A DNA stretch of 64,000 nt, from positions 32,001 through 96,000 of IMG/VR virus record IMGVR_UViG_2576861193_000004; one strand, given 5' to 3'. Shown here piece by piece: positions 24,823-56,079 of this stretch. The DNA is from a virus. Lineage: Duplodnaviria > Heunggongvirae > Uroviricota > Caudoviricetes. Under the pieces are notes generated by a model that did not search any database, was not told where the DNA came from, and was given only the letters and a program-made list of their open reading frames with translations. The translations under genes and the position numbers were made by a program. Within the stretch, counting starts at the first letter, position 1. Every line of letters starts with the position of its first letter.

Positions 24823-26079
24823 CTATCTAGAACCACCAAGAATAACACGGTTTTTGACTGGATACCTACGATGTACTGGATAGCCCAATGCGTCTGCACT
24901 ATGCTCAATGCCACCTGTCTTATCCATATCTCGTGTTCCAGGCTTGTAGATGACTTTTTCCAATGAATCAATCAAATGCTTGCACTTCGGATCGATATAC
25001 AGCCGGATATCTCCAGATGCGGTCATCAGCATTCGGTTAACAGCATTAACACGATCCGCAATTGGCGGGTGCTTTTTCGAATAATCGACACGTAAGAATC
25101 CCTTCTCTTTGAATATGTCGACGTCAGACTCCCCGCGAGCATGTTGGCGATAAGCACCTGCCGGATCTGGAAATACCGTTATCTGTGATTTCCAGCGCCA
25201 GAAGCGTCTCTCAAGCTCATCACAAACCTCTGCCGTGTTAGAGGAAAAGAGCACCAATTCATCAATTGCCCATAGCTCACCATTTGGCTGAGGTTGCAAA
25301 ATTACTGAAGACATCGGGTCAATGTTGAAGTCCTGCCCTACCCATATAGGCAACCGAGGGTTGAACTGAAGCGGTTTTACATGCACGTTACGATCGAACG
25401 GGTAGTAAACGCGCCCGGACATGTTCTCAAAGCTCGCCAGGTACTCCTGAGCGAACGATTTCGGGTCCATATCGTTCTTAGCAGCTTCAATTTCCGCCGT
25501 AGGCACAAACGGAGAATCGGCAGTTACAAACTGCCAGCTCTTCCACTGTCCCTTTCTTTGCAGCTCTACGTTCTGGCCTATAGTCCACAGTTTGTGAAAT
25601 TCCGAGAAGCCTTTTGGCGTACCAATGATCAGTGCACCGCCGCGTGTCGATGAAAGAGTAGGTCGTAACACCTTGTACCAGGTGTCAGCCTTCATATCCT
25701 GAAATTCATCAAGCACTACAAAATGCAACGCTACGCCGCGCAGAGTGTCAGGCTTATCAGCACCTTTGAGGGCGATCTCCGAACCGTTCTTCAACACGAT
25801 TGTCATCGTGGTGTCGTTCTTTTTCCTAACCCACTTACGAGGCAGAACTTCCTGTAGATCGTCCCACAAAATCTGGCGAGCCATCTGGTAAGTAGGAGCG
25901 ACATACCAGACCCTTTGCTTTTTTTCCTTTGCCGCCGCACGAATAATAGTGGAGATCGACAACCGGGATTTTCCCCAGCGTCGACCAGCACAAACAACTT
26001 TAAATCGATGCGGAGACTGGAAGACTTTCATCTGTCCAGAATGCAGTTGCACAAGACTGAGCGAGGACGGGATTGCCAT
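24823..26079 (-). CDS. terminase large subunit
   Basis: Walker A (CAGRRWGKS) and Walker B-like (VVLDEFQDM) motifs, nuclease-type C-terminus. Start overlaps terS stop. Confidence 0.8.
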   Translation of the reverse strand: MAIPSSLSLVQLHSGQMKVFQSPHRFKVVCAGRRWGKSRLSISTIIRAAAKEKKQRVWYVAPTYQMARQILWDDLQEVLPRKWVRKKNDTTMTIVLKNGSEIALKGADKPDTLRGVALHFVVLDEFQDMKADTWYKVLRPTLSSTRGGALIIGTPKGFSEFHKLWTIGQNVELQRKGQWKSWQFVTADSPFVPTAEIEAAKNDMDPKSFAQEYLASFENMSGRVYYPFDRNVHVKPLQFNPRLPIWVGQDFNIDPMSSVILQPQPNGELWAIDELVLFSSNTAEVCDELERRFWRWKSQITVFPDPAGAYRQHARGESDVDIFKEKGFLRVDYSKKHPPIADRVNAVNRMLMTASGDIRLYIDPKCKHLIDSLEKVIYKPGTRDMDKTGGIEHSADALGYPVHRRYPVKNRVILGGSR

Positions 26080-26711
26080 TATTCGTCCTCCCCTTCACTT
26101 CCATCATCTGTCGCATCAAATTCGCTTAGAGCTTCTTCTTCCAACGTCTCAAGCAATTCGTCATCGATGATTTCAGGCTCGTCGTCTTCCTGACGTAATT
26201 TCGCCACCTGGGAAGGCGTAAGCTCACCAAATACCAGGTTCGGAATTTCTTCCTCGTCATTTTCCGCATGATCCATGCCCAATGCTTTGGACGAAACTTC
26301 AAAGCATTTTGCAAGGGTATTACTGGCTCTCTGTAAGCTCTTGAGAGAATCCTCAATCGCCCCTAAAGGCCTACCCTCACGTTTGGCCGTAGTGACTTCG
26401 ACCATCACCATCTGCCCCAACGCATACGCCCAGCCGTCATAACGTGTACGACGTTCTTCTATCTTTTCCGCACGGGCTTTAGCGCGAAGCTCTGCGTCAG
26501 ATTTAAGAGACTCACGAACCATCTTCCCAACAGAGTCCGCGCCTTTCTCTAATCCTCGCTTTTTGAAATGTCTGGAGAGTGTTTCACGACGAATGCCGTA
26601 CTCTTCCTCCAGCTTTGAGAGTGTATATTCGCCTGACGTCCATTTGGCTTCAGCTTCGGCCCACTCCGCTGGTGTCAGGCGAGTTTTTACCTCGTCTTTT
26701 TCGACCGTCAT
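26079..26711 (-). CDS. terminase small subunit (putative)
   Basis: 210 aa with N-terminal HTH-like region and very acidic C-terminus, translationally coupled to terL. Confidence 0.6.
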   Translation of the reverse strand: MTVEKDEVKTRLTPAEWAEAEAKWTSGEYTLSKLEEEYGIRRETLSRHFKKRGLEKGADSVGKMVRESLKSDAELRAKARAEKIEERRTRYDGWAYALGQMVMVEVTTAKREGRPLGAIEDSLKSLQRASNTLAKCFEVSSKALGMDHAENDEEEIPNLVFGELTPSQVAKLRQEDDEPEIIDDELLETLEEEALSEFDATDDGSEGEDE

Positions 26712-26807
26712 AGATCCCTCTAAAACACACAGAGCGCGTCCATGCGCTCTAAAACAACTTGTTTACTGCATCTGCTAACCAACTTGTTTTCTGGGGTGTT
26801 TAATTAG

Positions 26808-31725: not shown

Positions 31726-32004
31726 ATGAGCGAAAAGAAAACAACTTATTGCCAAGTGGCATTGTCTGATAAGGCCAATGAAAAACTTGGAAAATTTCAA
31801 ATAAAACTCAAAGAGAAAAAAATCAAGATGTCTAAGGCTGAAGTTATCAATGCCATTCTGGAGACGATGACTATGGCTGAATTTGACAAAGTCACATCTG
31901 CCGTTGGGGTTTCCGCTAAGACGCGTGAGAAAATCATGCGCATCTATGAGAACTCCAATATGACAAAAAAAGATCTAGAGGAAATACTGAGCAGGTTGCC
32001 GTAA
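31726..32004 (+). CDS. hypothetical protein
   Basis: 92-aa ORF starting 3 nt after the helicase stop. Confidence 0.45.
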   Translation: MSEKKTTYCQVALSDKANEKLGKFQIKLKEKKIKMSKAEVINAILETMTMAEFDKVTSAVGVSAKTREKIMRIYENSNMTKKDLEEILSRLP

Positions 32005-33270: not shown

Positions 33271-33885
33271 TTGGATTATCATGATATGAAAATGAAACTT
33301 TCGTTACTCCTTGCTTGTATATACCTCCCGGCGTTTCCCGCCAACGCATTATCAGATTTCGTCTCTGACATGCAAAAAACGTACAGCATGTTTACCTCCG
33401 AAGACGTAGTAGAATACAAATCACGAGGTCTGAATCAGCCAGTTTGGTTCAGATTCTCAGACAACGCAGAAGAAACAATACTTAATGGAGGAAAAGAAAG
33501 ATTACGGTTGCAAATTAACGGGACCGCTGTACCAGAAAACGTTAATGTAAGCTCTGACGAAGCCATGAAGCCATCTGGAATTGTTTTAGAAGTTCAAGAC
33601 GGCACACTTTACTGTGATGAAATGGCTACAACAGGTTGCCAAGTAAACATTAGGGTTGGCAATGAAGAGCCTATCGTTACTTACGCCAAGGCTGAAGGGA
33701 ATACAAGTGGAAAGGTATTGTTTATCGATGAAAATATCTCAAAACGTATCGTTCGTGACATACAGAAAACAGCTAACTCTAAATCCGTCGATAAAAAAAT
33801 CTATGTTGAGGTTCCCTTCTTTGTCGTTGGTAACAAAGAATTTAAATTTGGGTTGCTGAAAACACCTCTAAGAGTATCAGAATGA
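33271..33885 (+). CDS. hypothetical exported protein
   Basis: N-terminal signal-peptide-like segment MKMKLSLLLACIYLPAFPANA (AxA site or lipobox-like LLAC). Confidence 0.5.
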   Translation: MDYHDMKMKLSLLLACIYLPAFPANALSDFVSDMQKTYSMFTSEDVVEYKSRGLNQPVWFRFSDNAEETILNGGKERLRLQINGTAVPENVNVSSDEAMKPSGIVLEVQDGTLYCDEMATTGCQVNIRVGNEEPIVTYAKAEGNTSGKVLFIDENISKRIVRDIQKTANSKSVDKKIYVEVPFFVVGNKEFKFGLLKTPLRVSE

Positions 33886-34406
33886 GAACATTGGACATCA
33901 CCTACGGCATACCGGCTGAAGTCTGGCCGCGAGACTACGAACATGCTGAGAACATACTTATGTTCTGGCGGAAGAACAACATTCCTGTAAGAGTCACGCT
34001 TGAAGACGGTCAGGTGTTTTGCATGTACGTTCAGGGGACAATGCCTTCACGCAATAAGCTAGATTTATGCCCGATTCCATATGATAAAGAAAATCGTATA
34101 AGACTCCCACTTGAGCGCATTAGCACAATTGAATCAGGTGTAATCGATGGCATTGCTCGCGAGTTCAAAGGTAGGCTAACAATACATCCAGACTATGTTG
34201 ACAATCAGCCATCACGCCGTGACTTTTTTGCGATATGTCGCAAGGCTTATCAAAACGACCAATCTATAAGGGTCTACATGACAGACGGTCGTGAAATAGA
34301 AGGGGTGTCAAGAGGCGTTGATGCTTGCCAGGTCACTCTTAAGTTAGAAGACGGCAGAAAAATACTTGTTTTCTTCGATTGGGTTGAACGAATCCTTCCA
34401 TTTTAA
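33882..34406 (+). CDS. tandem Rof (YaeO)-like domain protein, candidate Rho antagonist
   Basis: Two repeats resembling the E. coli Rof pattern as recalled (VRVTLEDGQ...RIRLPLERISTIE and VTLKLEDGRKILVFFDWVERI). Overlaps previous gene by ATGA. Confidence 0.4.
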   Translation: MRTLDITYGIPAEVWPRDYEHAENILMFWRKNNIPVRVTLEDGQVFCMYVQGTMPSRNKLDLCPIPYDKENRIRLPLERISTIESGVIDGIAREFKGRLTIHPDYVDNQPSRRDFFAICRKAYQNDQSIRVYMTDGREIEGVSRGVDACQVTLKLEDGRKILVFFDWVERILPF

Positions 34407-36114: not shown

Positions 36115-36240
36115 AATGCAGCCGTTTCCCGAAAAAATCCTGGCCGTTTCCCGTCGGCTCATGAATGCGTTCCTCGCCGTTTCTGAAAATTTCCCTGCGG
36201 CAGCTGGTGGCTATAGAGAAAGGGCCGTTTCTGGCCCTCT
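36115..36240. repeat. iteron cluster 1 (four GCCGTTTCC-type direct repeats)
   Basis: Copies at about 36121, 36143, 36176, 36224 (spacings 22, 33, 48 bp). Contains GCTGGTGG (Chi sequence) at 36203-36210. Confidence 0.7.
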
Positions 36241-36246
36241 TCTCAG

Positions 36247-36729
36247 TTACACGCCATCAAGGATGTGGATGCGGTTGCTTGCGTATACATTCAGCATAAA
36301 GTTAGCGCAAAACAGTTTCCATGTATCAACGCCAGCGGTATACGTAATGTTTTTGCATTTAATTGCATTGTTGGCGATCCGCATCCCCTGCGATACTGCT
36401 TCATCGTCGGAAAATTTGAACGACGATTGAGTTTTAATCCAGACAGAAATCTGCGTAGCGAACTCAATCAGCTTGGACTGGCAGAATCGCCCGGAGCGCA
36501 CCGGAAAGACGAACGTTCCGAATCCAGAATTTACCACATACGCTTTCTCAAATACCCGCGAGTAACGACGATTGCCAATGATGTCGCGTGCAATAATGCA
36601 TTTTTCTTGTGCTGACAGTTCTACCGTCTCATTGTCGCGCCATGCACCAAGTACTCGTTTTTCAATGTCAGAGAACGTTACAGCGATATTGCCATGTGCG
36701 GGTGCGTTTACAGTAGCGATAAAATTCAT
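36247..36729 (-). CDS. hypothetical protein (early-type cassette gene)
   Basis: ORF with the conserved promoter-palindrome cassette upstream. 3' end abuts iteron cluster 1. Confidence 0.5.
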   Translation of the reverse strand: MNFIATVNAPAHGNIAVTFSDIEKRVLGAWRDNETVELSAQEKCIIARDIIGNRRYSRVFEKAYVVNSGFGTFVFPVRSGRFCQSKLIEFATQISVWIKTQSSFKFSDDEAVSQGMRIANNAIKCKNITYTAGVDTWKLFCANFMLNVYASNRIHILDGV

Positions 36730-37079
36730 GATTAATTCCTTATCGTAAATAACAAATTGTTTTCTTGTTGGTGTTAATTATCGTTGTACGAATAAGGCGT
36801 CAAAGTGGAAAGTTGCGGTAGCCGGACGGGAACAGGTGGGTTTGTCGGTTGCCTGGAGGTAAGAGGTTGGTGTTTTTAGCCTGCGGGAAACAGGATGGTC
36901 ATTTAAGGCCACCAATGCTGATGGCCTTAATAATTATCGCCCTATTACGCTAAGGATCTTTTCCTCAACTGATTTGTTGTTGCGACTAAACTGCCTTGCG
37001 TATCTGATGACAGAAGAGGCGTTTTGCTTTCTGACCAATTCGACTCTTTCCTTCAGGGTTTTCTTGAAATCGCCCATAT

Positions 37080-37454
37080 TTACCACCAGGCGCAGAAGGT
37101 CAGTCTGTTATTGTGAAAGTCGTGGTTCCTGATCAGGTCTTCCACAAGTTTTTTCAGCTTATCCACGTCATGCCAGTAACCTTCGTCGTACTCCTGACTG
37201 CCGAAGAAAAAACCTTCCCGAGTAGGCAAGTACTCTTCGCAATTGCTTTCGTTTATGTGCATCAAATGAGCTTTCAGAAGACAAATGTCATTCATCGTTA
37301 ATTCTAAAAGCTCACAATTTTCGACTTCACCTACGTTGCGCTCCATCCACCCAACGAGCGCATTGAACTTACGGAAGTAAGCAACCTGCTTTCTGGATGC
37401 CTCGTTATTCAGATCGTTTTTAGGCTGTGTCTCGATATAGATATCAAGTCCCAT
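37080..37454 (-). CDS. hypothetical acidic protein
   Basis: ATG 37454 with SD AAGGAAA, conserved palindrome cassette upstream at about 37512-37528. Confidence 0.5.
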   Translation of the reverse strand: MGLDIYIETQPKNDLNNEASRKQVAYFRKFNALVGWMERNVGEVENCELLELTMNDICLLKAHLMHINESNCEEYLPTREGFFFGSQEYDEGYWHDVDKLKKLVEDLIRNHDFHNNRLTFCAWW

Positions 37455-37531
37455 GATGGTTTCCTTATTAAGTTGCTTCAGTGAAATCATTTTCACAAAT
37501 CAGATAAGGCAGAAAACAAATTGTTATCGGG

Positions 37532-37560
37532 CATAATAAAATGGCGCGGTTTACGCGCCA
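37532..37560 (-). terminator. rho-independent terminator
   Basis: Hairpin TGGCGCG-GTT-TACGCGCCA with T-run on minus strand, directly after the stop at 37572. Confidence 0.55.
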
Positions 37561-37571
37561 TTTAAAGAGGA

Positions 37572-37968
37572 TTAAGCGAATACGCTTTCAGGGATTAAGG
37601 TGTCGGCAGGAATGCCAGAGGTAATGCGCAGACCGTACTGGCCAATCCAGGTGGTGCTGGTGTTCAGGCTGGAGGCGAATACGGTGTTAACCATATTCAT
37701 CATGGTTTCAAACACCTCTTCATCAACCTGGCGGAAGTAGTTCTCGATTTTCAGCAGCAGCGGGTCAGTTGCATCGAGAATGGACTGGTATTGAGTCGCG
37801 TACTCGCCGCCGGAGGCATCACCTTTACGCACGATCGTACTGGCCTGGACTTCGGCACCAGTTTCGGTGTTGTACGTAACAACGGTAATTTTTGCCACAT
37901 TCTTACCTTCGGCGGTTTCAGAGGCATAGTAAACATCAACTGTCAGTTTTTCGCGTTTAACGGTCATT
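37572..37968 (-). CDS. hypothetical protein
   Basis: ATG about 37968 (MTVKREKL) with SD GGAGAG. Promoter-like TTGTAA-17-TAGAAT containing the GTAAGTATGTACTTAC palindrome upstream. Confidence 0.5.
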
Positions 37969-38030
37969 TCACTCTCCGTAGTGTCTTGGTTATTTTTATA
38001 TTCTATGATCGTAAGTATGTACTTACAATA

Positions 38031-38059
38031 CAAAAAAGCCCCGTAAGGATGGCGGGGCT
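38031..38059 (-). terminator. rho-independent terminator
   Basis: Minus strand AGCCCCGCCATCCTTACGGGGCTTTTTT, about 35 bp after the stop at 38094. Confidence 0.65.
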
Positions 38060-38093
38060 GTCGTACGGTCGACTAATTACCACTTGCACATTA

Positions 38094-38405
38094 TCAGGCT
38101 ATTGCCATCACTGATGCTCTCTGAATCTCTTGCTGGGCCACGCGGTTAACTTCCATCAAAGCCAGTTCGAGCTGATGTTCCGGCCACATTCTTTGAAATG
38201 CCACCCAGCCTTTTCCACGCTGGCGACGAACATTCATTACATAACGAGTAAAGGTGTTTTTATCGAAAGACACCGCTGTTTCACGGAACAGACGAATAGA
38301 GGTTCCATTGGCAACGATGTCCAGCAAAGTTAATTGAGCAACCAGCGCAGGCTTCTCTTTTCTCTTCTGGTCTTTGTCCAGACCAAGAACCAATGATTTT
38401 TTCAT
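38094..38405 (-). CDS. hypothetical basic protein (possible DNA-binding regulator)
   Basis: ATG 38405 (MKKSLVLG) with SD GGAG, conserved palindrome cassette immediately upstream, terminator downstream. Confidence 0.5.
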   Translation of the reverse strand: MKKSLVLGLDKDQKRKEKPALVAQLTLLDIVANGTSIRLFRETAVSFDKNTFTRYVMNVRRQRGKGWVAFQRMWPEHQLELALMEVNRVAQQEIQRASVMAIA

Positions 38406-38558
38406 CACAACTCCGTAAACAACTTGTTTTCTCAATGGCGTAAATAATACCAGTAAGAAAACGGCTACAAAGCATATTGATCAGGTGCATGAGCGATATG
38501 CAGGTTCTTCCCTGCGGCTATAGAGAAATTAAGCCAGCAATGCTGGCTTTGGTTGGGG

Positions 38559-38888
38559 TTACTCGAATACTTCAAGAAACTCCTGAACGTCCCAATGCTG
38601 GACGAGGTGAAGATAGACCTTAGAAATCACGTCATTTTCGCTATCGCATGTGAAGTAGTACTTCTGGCTGCGGTTGTATGTGTCCACACAAAATTCGCTC
38701 ATATCCATAAAGTCAGCATCTTCACCCATGTCGCAAATCATCAAAGCAGGTGCGTCATCACGAGTCATCAGCTCCAGCACCCATCTTGAATTAATCAGAG
38801 TGGAAGACCAACCTTCCAGCTCATAGAACTGGTCAAACTCTTTTTGAGTCAATTTCTTGATTTGGTTGATGTCGATATTTGCAAACAT
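38559..38888 (-). CDS. hypothetical highly acidic protein (candidate DNA mimic / anti-restriction)
   Basis: 109 aa with about 25 Asp/Glu against 8 Lys/Arg. ATG 38888 with SD AAGGA, conserved palindrome cassette upstream. Confidence 0.5.
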   Translation of the reverse strand: MFANIDINQIKKLTQKEFDQFYELEGWSSTLINSRWVLELMTRDDAPALMICDMGEDADFMDMSEFCVDTYNRSQKYYFTCDSENDVISKVYLHLVQHWDVQEFLEVFE

Positions 38889-39244
38889 AAAGCAATCCTT
38901 AAACAACATGTTTTCTTGATGGTGTTATTATCGCAATAACGCACAGGCGAAAAAGGATTTTATTCCGGTGAATGTGGTTTTGGCAGTGAGTTTTCAGGTT
39001 CAGTACCGAGTACACTTTTTACATTATTCTGATTTAGTGGCCGAAGGTGGCTGGTGGGCAGAATAATCATCTCCCCGAAAACCTACTGAAATCGATTGTG
39101 ACCCGCTGACTGTCTGGCACAATTACGCTGTAGTTGGGCATTCAGAGGGAATCCAGCGGTAAGTAAGTTCGCCTGCACGTGAGCGCCTCTCTTCTTCCCG
39201 CACATTACAGGTGGGTAGCCGCAACTCTCCCTATCGCTATACCG

Positions 39245-39385
39245 GTACGCCGCCGTTCCTGAACCGGCATCGAGCCTTTTCCCGAAATCCACACAGGCAA
39301 CTCGACCGTTTCCCTGAAAACCTCCAGCCGTTCCCCGAAGGCAACCCAGCCGTTTCTGTAGCGGGATGCAGCCTTTTCCCTGTAT
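39245..39385. repeat. iteron cluster 2 (six (A)GCCGTTTCCC-type direct repeats, 22-bp periodicity)
   Basis: Copies at about 39252, 39274, 39305, 39327, 39349, 39371; the last four form an uninterrupted 22-bp tandem array. Confidence 0.75.
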
Positions 39386-39419: not shown

Positions 39420-40330
39420 ATAAAATCAGGAGTTGATTAAATACGAAAAAGGAGGCGACACCCCTCCTTCCCTCCCCACTTATACATACCTGTCTTGTTC
39501 GCTATACATGTTGTGTTTTCTTCGTGTTTTATCTGTCTCAACCTCTCTATAGGCGTTAATGCTCACTCCTTCCAGAATGTTCTATACGGCGACTATTTCT
39601 GTTGGTGAATTGGGTGTGTTGTTTTCTCTGTCGGTGTATGTGGTTTCGTTCGTTTTGCGGTGGTTCTTCTATGGGGTGTTCTCGTCGTTTTGGTGATTGT
39701 TCTTCTCCGTGTATGGAGTAATGGCAGGTGGGCGATTCCTTTCGTTATTGTGTTTGAGTTGTTTGTCTGGAGTGTGAAAGGCTTTTGTAGTTATTCGTGT
39801 ATTGGGTAATGGCGTTTCCCGTGATTGTTATGTTTCGTGTCTTTTGGGATTGAGAGAAACCTTGCGGTTACAGGCTTCGTTGGGGTTTCAGTGATTCTGG
39901 TGTTTCTTCGCTGTTTGGGTAATGGCGTGTCGTGGGTATCGCGCGTATGAATGTTTTCGGATTGCCTGTGAAAGTTAGGTTGGTTGTCCGGTAGCCTGGG
40001 GAGAAGAGGTGGGTCTTTTCGGTAGCCTGCCATAAAGAGGTTGGTTGTTTTGGGGAATGGCATGTGTGTTATTTAGTTGTTTTGTTATGCCTGAAAATAA
40101 GTTGTTTATATGGTTGTGTAACGCAACGGGAACGATTTTGAGCGTGTGTTTTTGTTGGTGGTGTGTTGGGTCGTCTGTGGTGAAAATTGGACGCTGTGGC
40201 GCTGTCTGCTGCGTAGAATTACGGGTATAAGAAGTGATGTGTGAATACGTCAATTTTTTAGACCAAATCGGGTGAAAGCGTTGACGTTTCGTTGATCTGT
40301 TATTCAGTTGTTTTCTTATTGGTATAAACA
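39420..40330. other. ORF-poor, strongly G+T-skewed segment with periodic GGGTAATGGCG-like motifs
   Basis: Plus strand is almost only G and T over about 0.9 kb. Repeated motif at about 39712, 39800, 39918, 40052 and tandem CGGTAGCCTG / GGTTGGTTGT pairs. Track ORFs here have implausible composition. Confidence 0.6.
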
Positions 40331-40450
40331 ACGTTAACCTATTGATATTTAAAGGTGTGATTGCAGGTATGGAAGGAGAGTAGTGGCGATCAACAGATTC
40401 TTATAGAAAAGAATCAAATTGTGACCGCCATTATCAATAAGTTGCAACCG

Positions 40451-41172: not shown

Positions 41173-41358
41173 TTAGATGAGATGGTCTAATTCATCATCT
41201 ATCATTGCTTTAACACTTGAGTCATTAACCCCGTATTGATTTATGAGCCGTTTCAGCTCCGGTGAAAACTGAAGGTAGATATCGTGAGCGTTTTTCACTG
41301 TAGGTTCAACGCCACGCATTTCAAGCGCCTTTAGTAGATATGAGTCTTCTTTAAGCAT
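41173..41358 (-). CDS. hypothetical small protein
   Basis: 61-aa ORF between two early-type genes. Confidence 0.3.
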   Translation of the reverse strand: MLKEDSYLLKALEMRGVEPTVKNAHDIYLQFSPELKRLINQYGVNDSSVKAMIDDELDHLI

Positions 41359-41394: not shown

Positions 41395-41694
41395 TTACCA
41401 TTGCCAGCACTCTAGCCCTTCAACGACCGGTGCACCACAATCAAAATGTACAGAGTCAAAGCCTACATCAAGTACTTTCTGAATGTTAGCAATCGCGCCT
41501 TCGGATATACCATATCGACGCAAGTCATCTTTCCAGACATCATCCTGTAACCCGGCGTGGACAATACAACCGCCATCAATTTGTGAAACCCAATCCAGCT
41601 CATTGCTTGCGATCATGAATCGGCGAGCATCTTCCTCTGATGTATGAGATGAACTGATCAATGCCACCTGGTAGGCTTGGGTAATGTTCAACAT
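41395..41694 (-). CDS. hypothetical protein (early-type cassette gene)
   Basis: ORF preceded by two copies of the AACAAnTTGTT palindrome flanking a GATAAT -10-like hexamer. Starts about 160 bp downstream of the metG terminator. Confidence 0.5.
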   Translation of the reverse strand: MLNITQAYQVALISSSHTSEEDARRFMIASNELDWVSQIDGGCIVHAGLQDDVWKDDLRRYGISEGAIANIQKVLDVGFDSVHFDCGAPVVEGLECWQW

Positions 41695-41702
41695 TTCAAC
41701 AA

Positions 41703-41780
41703 CTCCGAAACAATTTGTTTTCTTATGTGGCTTATTATCTCAATCAACAAAAGGTAGAAAACAAATTGTTTTAGGGTTTG
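41703..41780 (-). promoter_or_regulatory. conserved promoter-palindrome cassette (two AACAAnTTGTT sites flanking GATAAT)
   Basis: GAAACAATTTGTTTTC (41707-41722) and GAAAACAAATTGTTTTA (41757-41773) around a minus-strand GATAAT hexamer. The same cassette is upstream of genes starting at 36729, 37454, 38405, 38888, 55263, 55986 and terS. Confidence 0.6.
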
Positions 41781-41855: not shown

Positions 41856-43889
41856 TTACTTAACCTGGTGGCCTGGTTTAGCACCAGCATCCGGGCTTAA
41901 CAGGAAGATATCTTTCCCGCCGGGGCCAGCAGCCATCACCATGCCTTCGGAGATACCGAAGCGCATTTTACGCGGAGCCAGGTTAGCCACCATAATGGTG
42001 TGACGACCAATCAGTGCCTGTGGGTCTGGATAAGCAGAACGGATGCCTGAGAAGACATTACGCTTTTCACCACCGAGATCCAGTGTCAGACGCAGCAGTT
42101 TGTCAGAACCTTCGACAAACTCCGCGTTTTCAATCAGCGCCACACGCAGGTCAACTTTGGCGAAGTCGTCAAAGGTGATGGTTTCCTGAATCGGGTCGTC
42201 AGCCAGTGGGCCAGTTACCGGTGCAGCTGTGGCTTTCACTTCTTCTTTGGATGCTTCCACCAGTGCTTCCACCTGTTTCATATCGATACGGTTATACAGT
42301 GCCTTGAACGGATTCACTTTATGGCCCAGCAGCGGTTGCTGGATACCATCCCAGGTCAGTTCTGTATTCAGGAATGCTTCTGCACGTTCAGTCAGTTTCG
42401 GCAGTACCGGTTTCAGGTACGTCATCAGCACGCGGAACAGGTTAATGCCCATAGAGCAAATCGCCTGCAGGTCGGCATCGCGGCCTTCCTGCTTCGCCAC
42501 CACCCACGGAGCCTGTTCATCAACATAGCGGTTAGCCAGGTCAGCCAGTGACATGATTTCACGGATAGCTTTGCCAAATTCGCGGCTTTCCCACGCTTCA
42601 CCAATCACTTCAGCGGCATCAGTGAAGGTTTTGTACAGTTGCGGGTCAGCCAGTTCGCTTGCCAGCACGCCGTCAAAACGTTTGTTGATAAAACCTGCAT
42701 TACGGGAGGCCAGGTTAACCACTTTGTTCACGATATCGGCATTCACGCGCTGAACAAAATCTTCCAGGTTGAGATCGATATCATCAATGCGCGAAGAGAG
42801 TTTCGCAGTGTAGTAGTAACGCAGGCTGTCGGCGTCAAAATGATTCAGCCAGGTGCTGGCTTTAATAAAGGTGCCGCGAGACTTGGACATCTTCGCGCCG
42901 TTCACCGTCACATAGCCGTGAACAAACAGGTTGGTCGGCTTGCGGAAGTTGCTGCCTTCCAGCATGGCAGGCCAGAACAGGCTGTGGAAGTAAACGATAT
43001 CTTTACCGATGAAGTGGTACAGCTCGGCGGTGGAGTCTTTCTTCCAGTATTCGTCGAAGCTGGTAGTGTCGCCGCGTTTGTCGCACAGATTCTTGAAGGA
43101 ACCCATGTAGCCAATCGGCGCGTCCAGCCAGACGTAGAAATATTTGCCCGGTGCGTTCGGAATTTCAAAACCGAAGTACGGCGCATCGCGGGAGATATCC
43201 CACTGTTGCAGGCCAGATTCAAACCACTCCTGCATTTTGTTTGCCACCTGCTCCTGCAACGCACCGCTGCGGGTCCATGCCTGCAACATTTCGCTGAAAG
43301 AGGGCAGATCAAAGAAGAAGTGTTCAGAATCACGCATTACCGGCGTAGCGCCAGAAACCACCGATTTCGGCTCGATCAATTCAGTCGGGCTATATGTTGC
43401 GCCGCAGACTTCACAGTTATCGCCGTATTGATCTGGCGCTTTACATTTAGGACAGGTGCCTTTTACAAAACGGTCCGGCAGGAACATGCCTTTTTCCGGG
43501 TCGTACAACTGAGAGATAGTGCGGTTTTTAATAAAACCGTTCTCTTTCAGGCGAGTATAGATAAGCTCAGACAACTGACGGTTCTCTTCGCTGTGCGTCG
43601 AGTGATAGTTGTCATAGCTGATGTTAAAGCCTGCGAAATCAGTCTGGTGTTCCTGACTCATTTCGCCAATCATCTGCTCCGGTGTGATACCAAGCTGCTG
43701 TGCTTTCAGCATGATCGGCGTACCGTGGGCATCGTCGGCACAGATGAAATTAACCTCGTGGCCGCGCATTCGCTGGTAACGAACCCAGACATCAGCCTGG
43801 ATGTGCTCCAGCATATGGCCGAGGTGGATTGAGCCGTTAGCGTACGGCAGCGCGCACGTCACCAGAATTTTCTTCGCGACTTGGGTCAT
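41856..43889 (-). CDS. metG: methionine--tRNA ligase
   Basis: 677-aa product essentially identical by eye to E. coli MetG ([29 protein letters not shown]...KMSKS...). Track ORF begins at an upstream in-frame start; true ATG at 43889. Confidence 0.95.
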
Positions 43890-44046
43890 AGTAGGCATTA
43901 CTTCTTTGTAGTGAAAAGGGGCTTGATAGTAACAAAATGGCCTTATGTCTGCCATGTGATAACAGCATTTCTCATAAATGATTAAATGTCGTAGCTGGAG
44001 TACACTACAAGGCGACAATTGCGCAAATTAAAATAAAGGAGACGGG

Positions 44047-45184: not shown

Positions 45185-45574
45185 CTACATCACGGGACAA
45201 TCATCAAACTCGCCACTTCTTGCGTCGTTGATAATGTGAGTGATCACACCAAACACGGCATTGCTGCCCGTGCATCCATCGTCATCCTTTGGCAATGCTT
45301 CCTTCTTACCGGTTCTTAAATCCTCCAGATGCTGACGTGGGTACTTCCGGTATCTTTTTACGCGATATTCCCCATCCAGAGCGCATACAAGCAGAGAACC
45401 ATCAACCGGGGTAAGTGAGGAATCGACCACCAGCAATGCACCCTGTAATATTCCCTCACGATGATGACTATCAGCTGCCCTCATGAAGTAGGTCGCTGAA
45501 GGATGTCTAATTATCTGCTGATCAAGAGAAATACGGCTCTCAGCATAATCCGCCGCAGGAGAAGGGAAGCCCAT
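45185..45574 (-). CDS. UmuD'-like (HumD-like) S24 peptidase-fold protein lacking the N-terminal cleavable arm
   Basis: Aligns with UmuD from about residue 25 (GFPSPAADY...HPSATYF). Ser (DSH) and Lys (RVKRY) positions retained. In-frame stop 5 codons upstream of ATG, SD GAGGTG. Confidence 0.8.
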   Translation of the reverse strand: MGFPSPAADYAESRISLDQQIIRHPSATYFMRAADSHHREGILQGALLVVDSSLTPVDGSLLVCALDGEYRVKRYRKYPRQHLEDLRTGKKEALPKDDDGCTGSNAVFGVITHIINDARSGEFDDCPVM

Positions 45575-45592
45575 AGCGTTTTCACCTCAGAG

Positions 45593-45612
45593 TACTGTTT
45601 ATCCATACAGTA
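45593..45612 (-). promoter_or_regulatory. LexA (SOS) box
   Basis: TACTGTTTATCCATACAGTA matches CTGT-N8-ACAG; located about 20 bp upstream of the umuD'-like ATG. Confidence 0.75.
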
Positions 45613-45672
45613 TACATTAAAGATGCTTGAAGTGTGCAATAGCGCGATGCTTTGCGCTCGCCTGGTGGCGCG

Positions 45673-45936
45673 TTATTTTTTGGCTATATCTTCTTTCTGA
45701 TATACCGGATCGTTTCCTTTTGGCAGCAGGAGGCTTAACTGCCGGTAGTGCCGTAGCCGTTCCATGAAATAGGTGCGCAGGTTCTCAGGTTGCTCACGGG
45801 CTACCTGTTCCGCTATGACGGGTATGTTCAATCGCTCTTTGTAGGCAACCCCCCTGGCAGCCAGGTCAACGTTAACTTTATTCCTTTCTTCCTGGCTTTT
45901 AGCTGCTATGTTCCATTCGTTCATATTAAATCCCAT
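45673..45936 (-). CDS. hypothetical protein
   Basis: 87-aa ORF upstream of the LexA box and umuD'-like gene. Start uncertain (ATG 45936 or 45924), weak SD. Confidence 0.35.
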
Positions 45937-47062: not shown

Positions 47063-48625
47063 ATGAAAATGACAAGTATTCAACAACGTGCAGAGCTTCA
47101 TCGTCAAATCTGGCAAATTGCTAACGATGTCAGGGGTTCGGTCGATGGATGGGATTTTAAGCAATACGTTCTGGGCGCACTTTTCTACCGTTTTATCAGC
47201 GAAAATTTTTCCAGTTATATTGAAGCCGGTGATGACAGTATCTGTTATGCGAAACTGGATGACAGCGTAATTACTGATGACATTAAAGACGATGCCATCA
47301 AAACTAAAGGCTACTTCATCTACCCCAGTCAGCTTTTCTGCAACGTAGCTGCGAAAGCAAATACTAATGACAGACTGAATGCAGATTTAAACAGCATCTT
47401 CGTTGCTATCGAAAGTTCTGCTTACGGTTATCCTTCAGAAGCAGACATCAAAGGTTTGTTTGCTGATTTCGATACCACCAGTAACCGCCTGGGTAACACC
47501 GTTAAAGATAAAAATGCCCGCCTGGCTGCGGTTCTGAAAGGGGTTGAAGGGTTAAAACTTGGTGACTTCAACGAACATCAGATTGACCTGTTCGGTGATG
47601 CCTATGAGTTCCTGATTTCTAACTATGCGGCAAATGCCGGTAAGTCAGGCGGTGAGTTCTTTACACCGCAGCACGTCTCCAGGCTGATTGCACAACTGGC
47701 AATGCATGGCCAGACCCACGTTAACAAAATCTACGACCCGGCAGCGGGTTCCGGCTCACTGTTGTTGCAGGCGAAAAAACAGTTTGATAACCACATCATC
47801 GAAGAAGGCTTTTTCGGTCAGGAAATCAACCATACGACCTATAACCTGGCGCGTATGAACATGTTTTTGCACAATATCAACTACGACAAGTTTGATATCA
47901 AGCTGGGTAATACACTGACTGAGCCGCACTTCAGAGATGAAAAACCGTTTGACGCCATCGTATCTAACCCACCGTATTCGGTGAAATGGATTGGCAGCGA
48001 TGACCCGACGCTGATTAACGATGAGCGTTTTGCCCCGGCTGGCGTTCTGGCCCCCAAATCCAAAGCTGACTTTGCGTTTGTATTACATGCACTGAACTAT
48101 CTTTCTGCCAAAGGTCGTGCTGCGATTGTCTGCTTCCCGGGTATTTTTTACCGTGGCGGCGCGGAGCAGAAAATCCGTCAGTATCTGGTCGATAATAACT
48201 ATGTCGAAACCGTGATTTCACTGGCACCGAACCTGTTCTTTGGCACCACCATTGCAGTAAACATTCTGGTGCTGTCTAAACATAAAACGGATACCAACGT
48301 TCAGTTTATTGACGCCAGCGAACTGTTCAAAAAAGAGACTAACAACAATATCCTGACCGATGCCCATATCGAACAGATTATGCAGGTATTTGCCAGCAAG
48401 GAAGATGTTGCTCATCTGGCGAAATCTGTCACGTTTGAGACCGTTGTCGCGAATGACTATAACCTGTCGGTAAGCAGCTATGTGGAAGCGAAAGATACTC
48501 GCGAAATTATCGATATCGCTGAGTTGAATGCAGAACTGAAAACCACGGTCAGCAAAATCGACCAGTTGCGTAAAGATATTGATGCGATTGTGGCTGAAAT
48601 TGAAGGCTGCGAGGTGCAGAAATGA
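47063..48625 (+). CDS. hsdM: type I restriction-modification methyltransferase subunit
   Basis: N-terminal HsdM pattern ([10 protein letters not shown]...[17 protein letters not shown]), N6-adenine MTase motif NPPYS, 520 aa as recalled for EcoR124I HsdM. Confidence 0.9.
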
Positions 48626-49857
48626 GCGAGTTGAGTTATCTGGAAAAATTGCTGGATGGGGTTGAGGTTGAGTGGTTGCCATTGGGGAAACTAGGTGAAT
48701 TAGTTCGTGGAAATGGATTGCCTAAGTCTGATTTTACCGAATCTGGGGTTCCTGCCATACACTATGGTCAGATATATACTTTTTACGGATTATCTACTGA
48801 AACAACAAAGTCATTTGTTTCCCATGAAACGGCGAAGAAGCTTAAAAAGGTTAACTCTGGTGATGTTGTTATTACTAACACAAGCGAAAATTTTACTGAT
48901 GTTGGTAAGGCGCTTGTTTATCTAGGTAAAGAGCAAGCTGTTACTGGTGGCCATGCAACTATTTTCAAGCCAAATAGCACTATTATTGGGAAATACTTTG
49001 CCTATTTCACGCAAACGGATTCTTTTGCAAATGAGAAAAGGAAATACTCCAAGGGAACTAAAGTAATTGATGTGTCTGCATCGGATATGGCGAAAATTAT
49101 TATCCCTATCCCCTGTCCGGAAAATCCCAAAAAATCCCTTGCTATCCAGTCTGAAATCGTTCGGATTCTGGACAAATTTACTGCACTTACCGCTGAGCTT
49201 ACCGCTGAGCTTACCATGCGTAAAAAACAGTACAACTACTATCGCGACCAATTGCTGAGTTTTAAAGAAGGTGAGGTTGAGTGGAAAACTTTGGGAGAAG
49301 TGGCTCAATACTCGAAAACAAGAATTAGTTTCGAACTACTTGATGAAAGGAATTATGTTGGCGTAGATAATCTGCTGCAAAACAGAGCAGGAAAATCATT
49401 ATCTAATCATGTACCCACATCAGGTAAATTAACGGAGTTTATACCTAACGATATACTGATTGGGAATATCCGCCCATATTTGAAAAAAATTTGGCAAGCA
49501 GATTGTATCGGTGGAACAAATGGCGATGTATTGGTTATTCGTTGCATAGATAGCTCAATAAATACCAGATATCTATATCAGATTTTGGCAGATGACAAAT
49601 TCTTTGAATACAACATGCAGCATGCTAAAGGAGCAAAAATGCCGCGTGGCAGTAAAGAGGATATAATGAAATACCCAATCCCTGTACCGCCACTCACCTT
49701 GCAAGCTCGCATTGTCGAAATACTCAACAAATTCGATACCCTGACAAACTCCATCACTGAAGGTCTTCCGCGTGAAATCGAATTACGCCAGAAACAATAC
49801 GAATACTACCGTGATTTACTGTTCAGTTTCCCAAAACCTGAAACTGTCAGTAATTAA
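48622..49857 (+). CDS. hsdS: type I restriction-modification specificity subunit, type IC-like
   Basis: Two target-recognition domains separated by a central conserved region carrying the TAELTAEL repeat. C-terminal YYRDLL repeat of the conserved motif. Overlaps hsdM stop. Confidence 0.9.
49186..49209 (+). repeat. 2 x 12-bp tandem repeat CTTACCGCTGAG encoding TAEL-TAEL in HsdS
   Basis: Perfect tandem duplication inside the hsdS central conserved region. Confidence 0.9.
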
Positions 49858-49978
49858 TTGACCATTGCTACCGACCGGGCCACCTTAACACCCGGTCTGT
49901 ATATAGACTATTTTTTACGCGCCGGAAGTCACTCTTAACGCCCTTCCGGCCCTTGCCAGGCGGCACAAAGGATGCGCT

Positions 49979-52900
49979 ATGACTCATCAAACACACACCA
50001 TTGCTGAATCCAATAACTTTATCGTCCTTGATAAGTACATCAAAGCTGAGCAAACAAGCGACAGCTACCAGAGCGAATCGGACCTGGAACGTGAACTGAT
50101 TCAGGACCTGCGGAATCAGGGTTATGAATTTATTTCCGTAAAATCACAGTCGGCAATGCTGTCCAATGTTCGGGAACAGCTTCAGAGCCTCAATGGTGTG
50201 ATGTTTAATGACAGCGAGTGGCGGCGCTTCACGGAGCAGTATCTGGACAATCCCAGCGATGGTATTCTGGATAAGACCCGTAAAATCCATATCGACTATA
50301 TCTGCGACTTTATTTTTGACGACGGGCGTCTTGAGAACATCTATCTGATCGATAAAAAGAATCTCATGCGCAACAAAGTGCAGATTATCCAGCAGTTTGA
50401 ACAGGCAGGTTCTCATGCTAACCGTTATGACGTCACGATCCTGGTTAATGGCTTGCCTCTGGTGCAAATCGAACTGAAAAAGCGCGGCGTGGCGATTCGT
50501 GAGGCTTTCAACCAGATACATCGTTACAGCAAAGAGAGTTTTAACAGCGAAAATTCCCTGTTTAAGTATCTGCAACTGTTTGTCATTTCTAACGGCACCG
50601 ATACCCGTTATTTTGCCAACACCACAAAGCGCGATAAAAACAGTTTTGACTTCACCATGAACTGGGCGAAATCAGACAACACGCTGATTAAAGACCTCAA
50701 AGACTTTACCGCTACCTTTTTCCAGAAACATACCCTGCTTAATGTTCTGGTGAACTACAGCGTGTTTGACAGTAGTCAGACGCTACTGGTGATGCGACCG
50801 TACCAGATTGCAGCTACCGAACGGATCTTATGGAAAATCAACAGCTCCTATAAAGCGAAAAACTGGTCTAACCCCGAAAGCGGTGGCTTTATCTGGCACA
50901 CCACTGGTTCCGGTAAAACACTGACCAGCTTTAAAGCCGCGCGTCTGGCAACTGAACTGGACTTTATTGATAAAGTCTTCTTCGTGGTCGACAGGAAAGA
51001 CCTCGATTACCAGACCATGAAGGAATATCAGCGTTTTTCGCCAGACAGCGTCAACGGCTCGGAAAATACCGCAGGTCTTAAACGAAATCTGGATAAGGAC
51101 GATAACAAAATTATCGTCACCACTATTCAGAAACTTAATAACCTGATGAAAGCAGAAAGCGACCTGCCTGTATACAATCAGCAAGTGGTGTTTATATTTG
51201 ATGAATGCCACCGCAGCCAGTTTGGAGAAGCGCAGAAAAACCTGAAGAAGAAATTCAAACGCTATTATCAGTTTGGTTTTACCGGCACCCCTATTTTCCC
51301 GGAAAATGCCTTAGGCTCAGAAACGACCGCCAGCGTATTTGGTCGTGAATTGCATTCGTATGTAATTACCGATGCGATTCGTGACGAAAAAGTGCTCAAA
51401 TTCAAGGTGGACTACAACGATGTGCGGCCACAGTTTAAGTCTTTAGAGACAGAAACTGACGAGAAAAAACTGAGTGCGGCTGAAAATCAGCAGGCGTTTC
51501 TTCATCCCATGCGTATTCAGGAAATCACGCAATATATCCTGAACAACTTCCGCCAGAAGACTCACCGTACTTACCCCGGCTCCAAAGGTTTTAATGCCAT
51601 GCTGGCAGTAAGCAGCGTGGATGCCGCGAAAGCCTATTACGCGACGTTTAAACGGTTACAAGAGGAAGCCGCTAATAAATCTGCTACCTATAAACCACTG
51701 CGTGTTGCGACAATCTTCTCCTTTGCCGCCAATGAAGAACAAAATGCCATTGGTGAAATTTCCGATGAAACTTTTGATACCAGCGCAATGGACAGCAGTG
51801 CTAAAGAGTTTCTTGACGCTGCAATTCGTGAGTATAACAGCTATTTTAAAACTAACTTCAGCACCGACAGTAACGGTTTTCAGAACTACTATCGTGATTT
51901 AGCCCAACGGGTTAAAAATCAGGATATCGATCTGTTAATTGTCGTTGGGATGTTTTTAACCGGCTTCGACGCTCCAACATTGAACACGCTATTCGTCGAT
52001 AAAAACTTGCGTTTTCACGGCCTGATGCAGGCATTCTCCCGTACCAACCGCATTTATGACGCTACTAAAACCTTCGGTAACATCGTCACTTTTCGGGATC
52101 TGGAACGCTCAACCATTGATGCCATAACGCTGTTTGGTGATAAAAATACTAAAAATGTGGTGTTAGAAAAGAGTTATGCAGAGTATATGGAAGGCTTTAC
52201 TGATGCTGCTACAGGTGAAGCTAAACGCGGCTTTATGGCAGTAGTTTCAGAACTGGAACAACGGTTCCCTGACCCTGCCAGTATTGAAAGTGAAAAAGAG
52301 AAGAAAGACTTCGTTAAACTGTTTGGCGAATACCTGCGTGCCGAGAACATCCTGCAAAACTATGATGAATTTGCCACGCTGAAAGCCCTGCAACAAATCG
52401 ATCTTAGCGATCCTGTTGCGGTAGAAAAATTCAAAGAAGAACATTATGTGGATGATGAAAAGTTCGCTGAATTGCAAACGATTCGTCTCCCTGCTGAACG
52501 CAAGATTCAGGATTATCGTTCTGCCTATAACGATATTCGTGACTGGCAGCGCCGCGAGAAAGAAGCTGATAAAAAAGAAAAATCAACCACTGACTGGGAT
52601 GACGTGGTTTTTGAGGTCGATTTGCTGAAGTCTCAGGAAATAAACCTGGATTATATCCTTGGACTGATTTTCGAACACAACAGACAAAATAAAGGCAAGG
52701 GCGAAATGATCGAAGAGGTCAAACGCTTAATTCGTTCAAGCCTGGGGAACCGGGCGAAAGAGGGCCTGGTGGTCGATTTTATTCAGCAAACGAACCTGGA
52801 TGATTTACCAGACAAAGCCAGCATCATTGACGCGTTCTTTACCTTTGCTCAACACGAACAGCTACGTGAAGCAGAAGCGTTGATTAAAGAAGAAAATCTC

Positions 52901-53095
52901 AATGAAGAGGCGGCGAAACGCTATATTCGCACGTCTTTAAAACGCGAATACGCCACCGAAAATGGCACAGAATTAAACGAGACATTACCAAAACTTAGTC
53001 CGTTAAACCCGCAATATAAAACGAAAAAACAGACGGTTTTCCAGAAAATCGTCACGTTTATTGAAAAGTTCAAAGGAGTAGGTGGGCAGATATAG
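49979..53095 (+). CDS. hsdR: type I restriction enzyme endonuclease/translocase subunit
   Basis: 1038 aa with SF2 helicase motifs (TGSGKT, DECHRS, GFTGTP). Confidence 0.9.
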
Positions 53096-53153
53096 TGTAT
53101 TAATCTGAACCAGATCTGGCAGATATCTGTGCAAATTGCAGATAGCTGTCAGA

Positions 53154-53564: not shown

Positions 53565-53740
53565 TTCCTGCCGATAGTCGATAGTCGATAGCAGCGTTTG
53601 AGTTGGGATCGTCGATGATGGAAAGGGCTGTATTCATAATAGCACCATTAAGAAGTGATTTGTTTAATGGTGCTATTATTTCAAAAATGAAAAGGTACTA
53701 AATAGAAATAAACCGGCAATCCTTCAAATAAAGGCATTGT

Positions 53741-55986: not shown

Positions 55987-56079
55987 GTGTTTTCCTTTTG
56001 TTATTTGTCAAAACAAGTTGTTTTATAGTTTCATAAATTGCTTACGCAAAGATGGTCAATGCATATGCACTAACAACCG

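What the first reader, a model, noticed from the sequence alone, without database searches (positions are those of the whole stretch)
37080..38888. Strongly acidic small proteins under the early cassette promoters: candidate DNA mimics
The 109-aa product of 38559-38888 has about 25 acidic against 8 basic residues and the 124-aa product of 37080-37454 is also markedly acidic. Phage anti-restriction proteins such as Ocr and ArdA are small acidic DNA mimics expressed early. Their presence in an element that itself carries a type I system and a Dam-type methylase fits an early-expressed defence-evasion set.
Basis: inference. Interest (0 to 1): 0.45.

Follow-up and report, generated by a model that had tools for sequence, protein, structure and literature searches.

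The report
Acidic early-gene cassettes of a phage-plasmid
Two small acidic proteins of unknown function sit in self-contained, operator-controlled gene cassettes of an E. coli phage-plasmid; they are plausible counter-defence proteins, but neither is related to the classic DNA mimics Ocr or ArdA, and DNA mimicry is untested.

Summary
The window is an SSU5/pHCM2-type E. coli phage-plasmid, 98% identical to phage Cyrano. Both ORFs are real, conserved genes. D (38559-38888, 109 aa) has 22 acidic and 8 basic residues, not about 25, with pI 4.2. It is the most acidic of 68 ORFs in the window. A (37080-37454, 124 aa) has 22 acidic and 13 basic residues, pI 4.9, so it is only moderately acidic.

Each gene is a separate cassette with a -10 box, a conserved palindrome AAACAAnTTGTTT, a Shine-Dalgarno site, the ORF and a terminator. 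The palindrome is strongly over-represented here and in diverged relatives.

Neither protein matches Ocr, ArdA, ArdB or any Pfam, NCBIfam or PADLOC model.

A belongs to a broad mobile-element family with invariant non-acidic motifs and a YfbM-like predicted fold. In other elements its homologues lie beside ArdA, ArdB/KlcA, an ArdC-like protein, Tad3 and a SAM lyase.

An early counter-defence role is plausible. Ocr/ArdA-type mimicry is unsupported for A and only weakly suggested for D.

The parts
38559..38888 (-). Gene D: 109-aa acidic protein (22 D+E, 8 K+R, pI 4.21), phrog_7645, function unknown
38902..38932 (-). D promoter/operator module: extended -10 (TGcGATAAT, about 38927-38935) followed by palindrome AACATGTTGTT (38902-38912), 14 nt upstream of the ATG
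   Evidence: The -10 coordinates were read by eye.
38531..38549 (-). Intrinsic-terminator-like hairpin directly after D
38094..38405 (-). Gene C: 103-aa basic protein (pI 10.5), phrog_5125; a separate cassette between D and B
   Evidence: Its order relative to D is not conserved in relatives.
38418..38428 (-). Palindromic operator core upstream of C (AACAAGTTGTT)
37572..37967 (-). Gene B: 131-aa acidic protein (17 D+E, 10 K+R, pI 4.5), phrog_2473. It has its own sigma-70-like promoter (38028-38000) with no palindrome.
37080..37454 (-). Gene A: 124-aa moderately acidic protein (22 D+E, 13 K+R, pI 4.93), phrog_7971. It is a member of a broad mobile-element family with motifs MGLD, YFRKxN, ENC, LPTxEGFFFGSxEYDxxY and C-terminal WW.
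   Evidence: AF2 pLDDT 93. Best PDB neighbour is YfbM 1ryl, TM 0.58.
37515..37525 (-). Palindromic operator core upstream of A (AACAATTTGTT). It overlaps the presumed -35, sits directly after B's terminator, and is about 60 nt upstream of the ATG.
36247..36729 (-). Gene E: 160-aa basic protein, phrog_1641; the last cassette of the run
36751..36761 (-). Palindromic operator core upstream of E (AACAATTTGTT), preceded by TTGACG ... GATAAT

Best explanation
A and D are two independent accessory cassettes in a variable array of small genes of an SSU5-type phage-plasmid.

Each cassette has its own promoter. The promoter carries a conserved 6-1-6 palindrome (AAACAAnTTGTTT) that I read as the operator of an element-encoded repressor. 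On that reading the cassettes are silent in the plasmid-prophage state and fire immediately when the DNA enters a repressor-free cell or on induction.

Their products most likely act as stoichiometric protein inhibitors of host functions met at entry, meaning defence or DNA-processing proteins.

D is the better candidate for an acidic nucleic-acid-like decoy. It is small and alpha+beta, its net charge of about -14 is conserved, and an acid-rich variable loop spans residues 53-69.

A more likely works through a specific conserved pocket or interface than through charge mimicry. The candidate residues are D4, R28, K29, N31, E45, P77, T78 and the GFFFG loop on a YfbM-like fold.

Shown: gene reality, charge figures, cassette architecture, palindrome enrichment, cassette shuffling, neighbourhoods of A homologues, and predicted folds.

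Inferred: repressor control and early timing, the inhibitor function, and the target class.
For: Cassette architecture:
- The promoter-palindrome-SD modules can be aligned.
- Terminator-like hairpins follow D and B; the sequence after C was read by eye.

Palindrome enrichment:
- 22 matches against 3.6 expected in the window.
- 9 against 0.09 expected in L007, and 8 against 0.13 in L003. Both are phage-plasmids whose D homologues are only about 30% identical.
- One copy lies upstream of each small gene, including the D homologues.
- Two copies lie upstream of the intact DUF4942 methylase in L003.

Cassette independence:
- Order is shuffled in relatives, and A is absent from both L003 and L007.

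Protein D:
- It is the most acidic ORF in the window.
- Net charge is conserved across its family.
- The published AcrIIA13b topology (b1-b3, a1, b4, a2, a3) and acidic DNA-mimicking surface resemble the D model (PMC13147308).

Protein A, homologue neighbourhoods:
- Two genes upstream of ArdA in an E. coli ICE.
- Immediately upstream of ArdB/KlcA and an ArdC-like MPTase, near a TraI_2 relaxase.
- Within 5 kb of Tad3 and a Macro domain protein, with a SAM lyase also present in L018.
Against: - There is no experimental or expression data for these genes.
- No regulator has been identified for the palindrome.
- 'Early' is inferred from architecture only.
- In three lytic-phage contexts, A homologues sit in DNA-metabolism modules (dUTPase, ATP-dependent ligase, Dda/PIF1-like helicase, RNR) with no known anti-defence gene nearby. 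The association with anti-defence genes is therefore not universal.
- Many small phage proteins are acidic for unrelated reasons.
Confidence: 0.45

Rival explanations
1. One reading: A and D are Ocr/ArdA-like DNA mimics that bind type I R-M enzymes in their DNA groove and block restriction on entry.
For: - Both are small and acidic. D's pI of 4.2 lies in the range of accepted mimics such as DMP12 (118 aa, pI 4.39; PMC3643605).
- A homologues sit beside ArdA and ArdB.
- D weakly resembles the DNA-mimic AcrIIA13.
- A has a weak Foldseek hit to the DNA mimic DMP12 (rank 18, TM 0.41-0.44, probability 0.28).
Against: - No Pfam hit to Ocr, ArdA or Antirestrict at E <= 1. The precomputed Pfam annotations do flag ArdA and Antirestrict in neighbouring genes of other loci.
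- The predicted folds are alpha+beta. No Ocr or ArdA chain appears among the listed PDB matches.
- Charge density is about half that of Ocr.
- In A's family, acidity is not conserved (net -1 to -19), while hydrophobic, glycine and basic motifs are invariant.
Confidence: 0.12
2. The acidity is incidental and the proteins have no counter-defence role. A would be an accessory factor of phage or mobile-element DNA metabolism, or a small-molecule-binding or enzymatic protein. D would be a lineage-specific protein of some other function, such as regulation or assembly.
For: - A's pattern of invariant polar and aromatic residues (D4, R28, K29, N31, E45, T78, Y89, Y93, GFFFG) resembles a pocket or active site.
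- In three independent lytic-phage contigs, A homologues sit between dUTPase/DCD, DNA ligase and helicase genes.
- The closest fold, YfbM/DUF1877, has no known function.
- D has no informative homologue anywhere.
Against: - A homologues recur next to four different classes of known anti-defence gene in ICEs and large phages.
- D's net charge is conserved at 25-35% identity.
- Placement in a shuffling, operator-controlled accessory array is typical of entry or host-takeover genes.
Confidence: 0.3
3. D (acidic) and C (basic, pI 10.5) form a type II toxin-antitoxin pair.
For: An acidic 109-aa gene lies directly upstream of a basic 103-aa gene on the same strand.
Against: - The two are separated by about 150 bp containing a terminator-like hairpin, and C has its own promoter/operator.
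- Order and adjacency are not conserved. In L003 C precedes D. In L007 two other genes lie between them.
- No PADLOC or Pfam toxin or antitoxin hit.
Confidence: 0.04

Closest known systems
Ocr (T7 gp0.3), DNA-mimic inhibitor of type I R-M and BREX
   Same: A small, acidic protein encoded by a mobile element and presumably made at entry. D is of similar length (109 aa against 116 aa).
   Different: - Ocr has 34 acidic and 6 basic residues. D has 22 and 8; A has 22 and 13.
- Ocr is described as an elongated homodimer shaped like bent 24-bp DNA, and from my own knowledge it is largely helical. A and D are predicted compact alpha+beta proteins.
- No sequence or fold match.
ArdA (PF07275), the anti-restriction DNA mimic of plasmids and ICEs
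   Same: An entry-phase mobile-element protein. A homologue of A lies two genes from an annotated ArdA in an E. coli ICE.
   Different: No PF07275 match for A or D. No fold match. A's conserved residues are not the acidic ones.
AcrIIA13 / AcrIIA13b (PDB 7ENI), an acidic PAM-duplex mimic that binds the WED-PI cleft of SauCas9
   Different: - Foldseek does not list it.
- In AcrIIA13b the charge lies on the beta-strands. In D much of it lies in the 53-69 loop.
- From my own knowledge, E. coli does not carry type II-A Cas9, so the target would have to be different.
YfbM / DUF1877 (PDB 1RYL), an E. coli protein of unknown function
   Same: It is the best PDB fold neighbour of A (Foldseek probability 0.97, TM 0.58). 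Both proteins start with MG followed by a beta-strand.
   Different: No Pfam DUF1877 hit among 47 family members. hhalign probability is 0.2%. YfbM has 167 aa and no known function, so the match adds no mechanism.
DMP12 (Neisseria DNA mimic that binds HU, PDB 3W1O)
   Same: A small alpha/beta acidic protein (118 aa, pI 4.39). It gives a weak Foldseek hit to A (TM 0.41-0.44).
   Different: The probability is 0.28 and E is 0.52, which is not significant. There is no sequence similarity.

Membership tests
Ocr (Pfam PF08684) | Sequence match to the family model | tested here: not met
   hmmscan of A and D against Pfam-A at E <= 1 found 0 families.
Ocr | Elongated dimer with very high acidic content (34 acidic and 6 basic residues in 116 aa) | tested here: not met
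   The AF2 models are alpha+beta. D has 22 acidic and 8 basic residues; A has 22 and 13. The Ocr figures come from the PMC4872106 abstract.
ArdA (Pfam PF07275) | Sequence match to the family model | tested here: not met
   No hit for A or D, nor for 47 members of A's family. The precomputed PF07275 annotation does flag neighbouring genes in L008-L011.
ArdB/KlcA (Pfam PF03230 Antirestrict) | Sequence match to the family model | tested here: not met
   No hit. The precomputed PF03230 annotation flags the gene downstream of the A homologue in L012-L014.
DNA-mimic proteins (functional class) | Small size and low pI | tested here: met
   D: 109 aa, pI 4.21. A: 124 aa, pI 4.93. Compare DMP12: 118 aa, pI 4.39. 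This feature is necessary but far from sufficient.
DNA-mimic proteins (functional class) | Surface carboxylates arranged like the phosphates of B-DNA | not testable with these tools
   Model coordinates are not exposed, so no electrostatics or distance analysis was possible.
DNA-mimic proteins (functional class) | Competitive binding to the DNA-binding site of a target protein | not testable with these tools
   This needs co-folding or a pull-down experiment.
AcrIIA13 | Shared fold | tested here: inconclusive
   [not shown]
AcrIIA13 | Sequence similarity | tested here: not met
   A profile of D's family searched against PDB sequences at E <= 10 gave only two unrelated hits.
YfbM / DUF1877 (Pfam PF08974) | Sequence match to the family | tested here: not met
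   No Pfam hit for the family. hhalign of the A1 profile against YfbM gave probability 0.2%.
YfbM / DUF1877 | Shared fold | tested here: inconclusive
   Foldseek probability 0.97 but E 0.046, TM 0.58/0.50, rmsd 4.8 A.
Type II toxin-antitoxin pair (D with C) | Conserved adjacency and co-transcription of the two genes | tested here: not met
   A terminator and a separate promoter lie between them. Order and adjacency differ in L003 and L007.

The most novel reading that the evidence does not exclude
The A family (MGLD ... YFRKxN ... LPTxEGFFFGSxEYD ... WW, with a YfbM-like fold) may be an unrecognised, widespread anti-defence or establishment family shared by ICEs, phage-plasmids and large lytic phages.

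D may be a new acidic decoy fold, distantly AcrIIA13-like, aimed at a DNA-binding defence or repair protein of Enterobacteriaceae.

Both may belong to a single-operator (AAACAAnTTGTTT) 'entry regulon' of SSU5-type phage-plasmids. That regulon would also drive an orphan DUF4942 methylase and other small acidic proteins.
Probability: 0.2. Interest if true: 0.6.

Novelty: new member of a known kind. Interest (0 to 1): 0.4.

Why it matters
SSU5/pHCM2-type phage-plasmids are common in clinical and livestock Enterobacteriaceae: 718 PLSDB plasmids match this 4-kb region. Almost nothing is known about how they establish themselves in new hosts.

If A or D is an anti-defence protein, it would add a new family to the anti-restriction or anti-defence repertoire. 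In A's case that family spans ICEs, phage-plasmids and lytic phages.

The conserved operator would mark the whole entry regulon. That gives a sequence handle for finding further candidate counter-defence genes in these elements.

If neither has such a function, the finding is ordinary: small acidic phage proteins of unknown function.

Tried and rejected
- Family searches. Pfam, NCBIfam, PADLOC and PHROGs scans of A-E gave only unknown-function PHROGs and sub-threshold noise, such as Cas_APE2256/Csm6 for B.
- PDB sequence searches with the A and D family profiles found nothing significant.
- YfbM. hhalign of A's profile against YfbM found no sequence relationship. My recalled YfbM sequence was first verified against 1RYL.
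- Possible links between A, D and the neighbouring DUF5983 protein, prompted by the shared C-terminal W-x-W, were rejected by hhalign.
- A D/C toxin-antitoxin pair was rejected on synteny and transcription-unit grounds.
- Literature searches for YfbM/DUF1877, DUF4942/DUF5983, SSU5-like phage-plasmid anti-defence, PhiR41 and Cyrano found no functional data on these genes.
- Rfam and tandem-repeat scans of 35.3-41.9 kb found nothing.
- The consensus sigma-70 scan under-calls these promoters: 4 found against 9.5 expected. The case for promoters therefore rests on the conserved module, not on that scan.

Full report
**What the window is.** The 4-kb region around the finding is 98% identical to Escherichia phage Cyrano. 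It is 99% identical to non-mobilizable E. coli plasmids of about 110 kb. This is the SSU5/pHCM2 type of phage-plasmid. In every public annotation the five genes here are 'hypothetical protein'. The context claims hold: a type I hsdM/hsdS/hsdR set lies at 47063-53095, and a phage Dam-family methylase (PF05869) lies at 58551-59144.

**The observation.** On the minus strand there is a run of five small genes:
- D, 38559-38888, 109 aa
- C, 38094-38405, 103 aa
- B, 37572-37967, 131 aa
- A, 37080-37454, 124 aa
- E, 36247-36729, 160 aa

D has 22 acidic and 8 basic residues, net charge -14, pI 4.21. A has 22 acidic and 13 basic residues, net -9, pI 4.93. B is also acidic (pI 4.5). C and E are basic.

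Among 68 crude non-overlapping ORFs in the window, D is the most acidic per residue. With its annotated start it scores -0.128. The ORF caller used an upstream ATG and lists it at -0.121, still the lowest in the set. A at -0.073 would fall in roughly the most acidic tenth.

The start codons are secure. A's N-terminus MGLD is invariant in 47 homologues. D's homologues start at the equivalent Met. Ocr, with 34 acidic and 6 basic residues in 116 aa (PMC4872106), has about twice D's charge density.

**Cassette architecture.** Each gene is its own transcription unit. Upstream of E, C and D there is an alignable module: a -10 box (GATAAT or TATTAT, often with an upstream TG), about 12 nt, then AAGAAAACAAnTTGTTT, then the Shine-Dalgarno site and the ATG. 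The same module precedes the DUF5983 gene at 41395-41694 and the genes at 54694-55263 and 55561-55986.

For A the same palindrome lies about 60 nt upstream of the ATG. It overlaps the presumed -35 and sits directly after B's terminator. Terminator-like hairpins follow D and B. The sequence after C was read by eye.

The 14-mer with up to 2 mismatches occurs 22 times in the window against 3.6 expected, and no shuffle reached that number. There are 12 palindrome cores.

The palindrome is also conserved in phage-plasmids whose D homologues are only about 30% identical. L007 has 9 copies against 0.09 expected, and L003 has 8 against 0.13. One copy lies upstream of each small gene, including the D homologues. 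Two copies lie upstream of the intact 561-aa DUF4942 methylase of L003.

I read the palindrome as the operator of an element-encoded repressor. On that reading the cassettes are entry or induction genes. This is an inference: no regulator was identified and no expression data exist.

Cassette order is not conserved. In L003 the order is C-D-B ... DUF5983-E. In L007 it is D-x-x-C-B-x-E. A is missing from both. These are therefore independent, shuffling accessory cassettes, which argues against a D/C toxin-antitoxin pair.

**Protein D.** It has no Pfam, NCBIfam or PADLOC match, and its PHROG (7645) has unknown function. The family is very small. An exhaustive phmmer search of 1.8 billion representatives found 9 proteins. 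A profile search found 17, all from phage-plasmid-sized contigs of Enterobacteriaceae.

Across nine homologues, down to 25% identity, net charge stays between -13 and -15. The consistently acidic positions are E17, D44, D45, D53, D69 and D86. An acid-rich loop of variable length spans residues 53-69.

The AF2 model has pLDDT 83 and pTM 0.78. It is an alpha+beta fold with three consecutive strands, a helical connection, a fourth strand and two C-terminal helices. Foldseek against the PDB finds nothing (TM <= 0.37).

**Protein A.** It has no curated-family match, and its PHROG (7971) has unknown function. Its family is broad: 78 clusters at E <= 1e-3.

The family has strikingly invariant motifs: M1-G2-(L)-D4; YFR28K29xN31; E45-N-C; LP77T78xEG81F-F-F84-G85SxEY89DxxY93; and C-terminal WW. 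Net charge in the family ranges from -1 to -19. Only four positions are acidic in at least 75% of members.

That pattern fits a specific pocket or interface better than a charge mimic. The AF2 model is confident, with pLDDT 93. Its best PDB neighbour is E. coli YfbM/DUF1877, a protein of unknown function (Foldseek probability 0.97, TM 0.58). The DNA mimic DMP12 appears only at rank 18, and not significantly. There is no sequence link to YfbM.

**Genomic neighbourhoods of A homologues.** I examined nine contexts.
- E. coli chromosomal ICE: the homologue lies two genes upstream of annotated ArdA, in a co-directional run with LPD29 and DUF1281 proteins.
- Metagenomic ICE: the homologue lies directly upstream of PF03230 (ArdB/KlcA), then an ArdC-like MPTase-PolyVal protein, then a TraI_2 relaxase.
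- Two related contigs of 263-289 kb: Tad3 and a Macro domain protein lie within 5 kb. One of them, L018, also has an S-AdoMet lyase.
- Three lytic-phage contigs: the homologue sits between dUTPase/DCD, ATP-dependent DNA ligase, Dda/PIF1-like helicase and RNR genes.
- Two further contigs: only runs of small unknown genes.

The common denominator is the early or entry region of mobile elements. The link to known anti-restriction genes is recurrent but not universal.

**Verdict on the interpretation.** The idea of an early defence-evasion set is reasonable. It gains real, if circumstantial, support from four observations: the operator-controlled shuffling array, an orphan methylase under the same operator in a relative, the neighbourhoods of A, and the conserved charge and weak AcrIIA13-like fold of D.

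The specific claim of Ocr/ArdA-like DNA mimicry is not supported for A and remains a minority possibility for D. The argument from the element's own type I system carries no weight. In this lineage the hsdMSR block has replaced the C-terminal ~400 residues of the DUF4942 methylase. Only residues 6-158 remain, at 53160-53615. The methylase is intact in L003. The R-M system is therefore most likely a lineage-specific insertion unrelated to A or D.

**Novelty and interest.** The genes are uncharacterised. If functional as proposed, they would be new members of a known kind: small inhibitors made by mobile elements at entry. A's breadth across element types and its tight motifs make it the better experimental target. 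D is the better DNA-mimic candidate. Without phenotype or binding data, interest is moderate.

Noticed in passing
window 26753-26788, 31740-31750, 36751-36761, 37515-37525, 38418-38428, 38902-38912, 40096-40106, 41709-41770, 55283-55293, 56012-56022; also L003 and L007: A 6-1-6 palindrome, AAACAAnTTGTTT, marks the promoters of many small accessory genes. The 14-mer gives 22 matches against 3.6 expected in the window. It is conserved in diverged phage-plasmids (9 and 8 copies against about 0.1 expected). This looks like a single-operator regulon, but the regulator is unknown. Two copies precede the phrog_867 'DNA binding domain' gene at 26079-26711.
   Followed up: partly
window 33882-34406 (+): The gene annotated 'transcriptional regulator' is a FljA-like protein (PF03614, repressor of phase-1 flagellin, E 9e-81). 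It also has a weak Hfq-domain hit. From my own knowledge, FljA acts on mRNA 5' leaders. A homologue flanks the cassette array in L007 as well. It is a candidate regulator of the cassettes, but this was not tested.
   Followed up: no
window 39500-40350 (minus strand): About 850 nt have no credible ORF and are 70% A+C on the minus strand (G 13.6%). These are the most strand-skewed windows of the 64 kb. The stretch lies downstream of operator-like sites (40309-40324, 40096-40106) and ends at a minus-strand terminator (39472-39446). Positions 39581-39746 are 80% identical to unannotated SSU5 DNA. There is no Rfam hit. It may be a long A/C-rich non-coding RNA.
   Followed up: partly
window 47063-53615: The type I hsdM/S/R block (the HsdR has an EcoR124_C domain) abuts a truncated DUF4942 DNA methylase. 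Only residues 6-158 of about 561 remain, at 53160-53615. The methylase is intact in the relative L003. The R-M cassette therefore appears to have replaced most of an orphan methylase gene.
   Followed up: partly
window 41173-41358 (-) and 41395-41694 (-): Two more small acidic proteins lie downstream of a two-palindrome promoter region. One is a 61-aa protein with a sub-threshold partial hit to the T7 gp5.9 RecBCD-inhibitor model (PF25708, E 0.005, 17.1 bits against a cut-off of 24.5). The other is a 99-aa DUF5983 protein (16 acidic, 6 basic).
   Followed up: no
window 37572-37967 (-): Gene B lies inside the finding's span. It is also acidic (pI 4.5). It has a sigma-70-like promoter (TTGTAA-17-TAGAAT, 38028-38000) without the palindrome, so it may be expressed differently from its neighbours.
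   Followed up: no
window 36842-36905 and 39985-40051: There are two pairs of direct repeats of about 30 nt (minus strand CCAACCTCTTnnnnCAGGCnACCG...), one upstream of the E cassette and one inside the A/C-rich non-coding stretch. A second repeat family (CCGTTTCCC...) occurs at 36122-36158 and 39306-39364. Their function is unknown.
   Followed up: no
window 41856-44018, 45185-45936, 61992-63830: The element encodes a full-length methionyl-tRNA synthetase, a UmuD-like S24 peptidase, a DNA polymerase III theta homologue, a DHFR and a thymidylate synthase. This is an unusual load of host-like housekeeping genes for a phage-plasmid.
   Followed up: no
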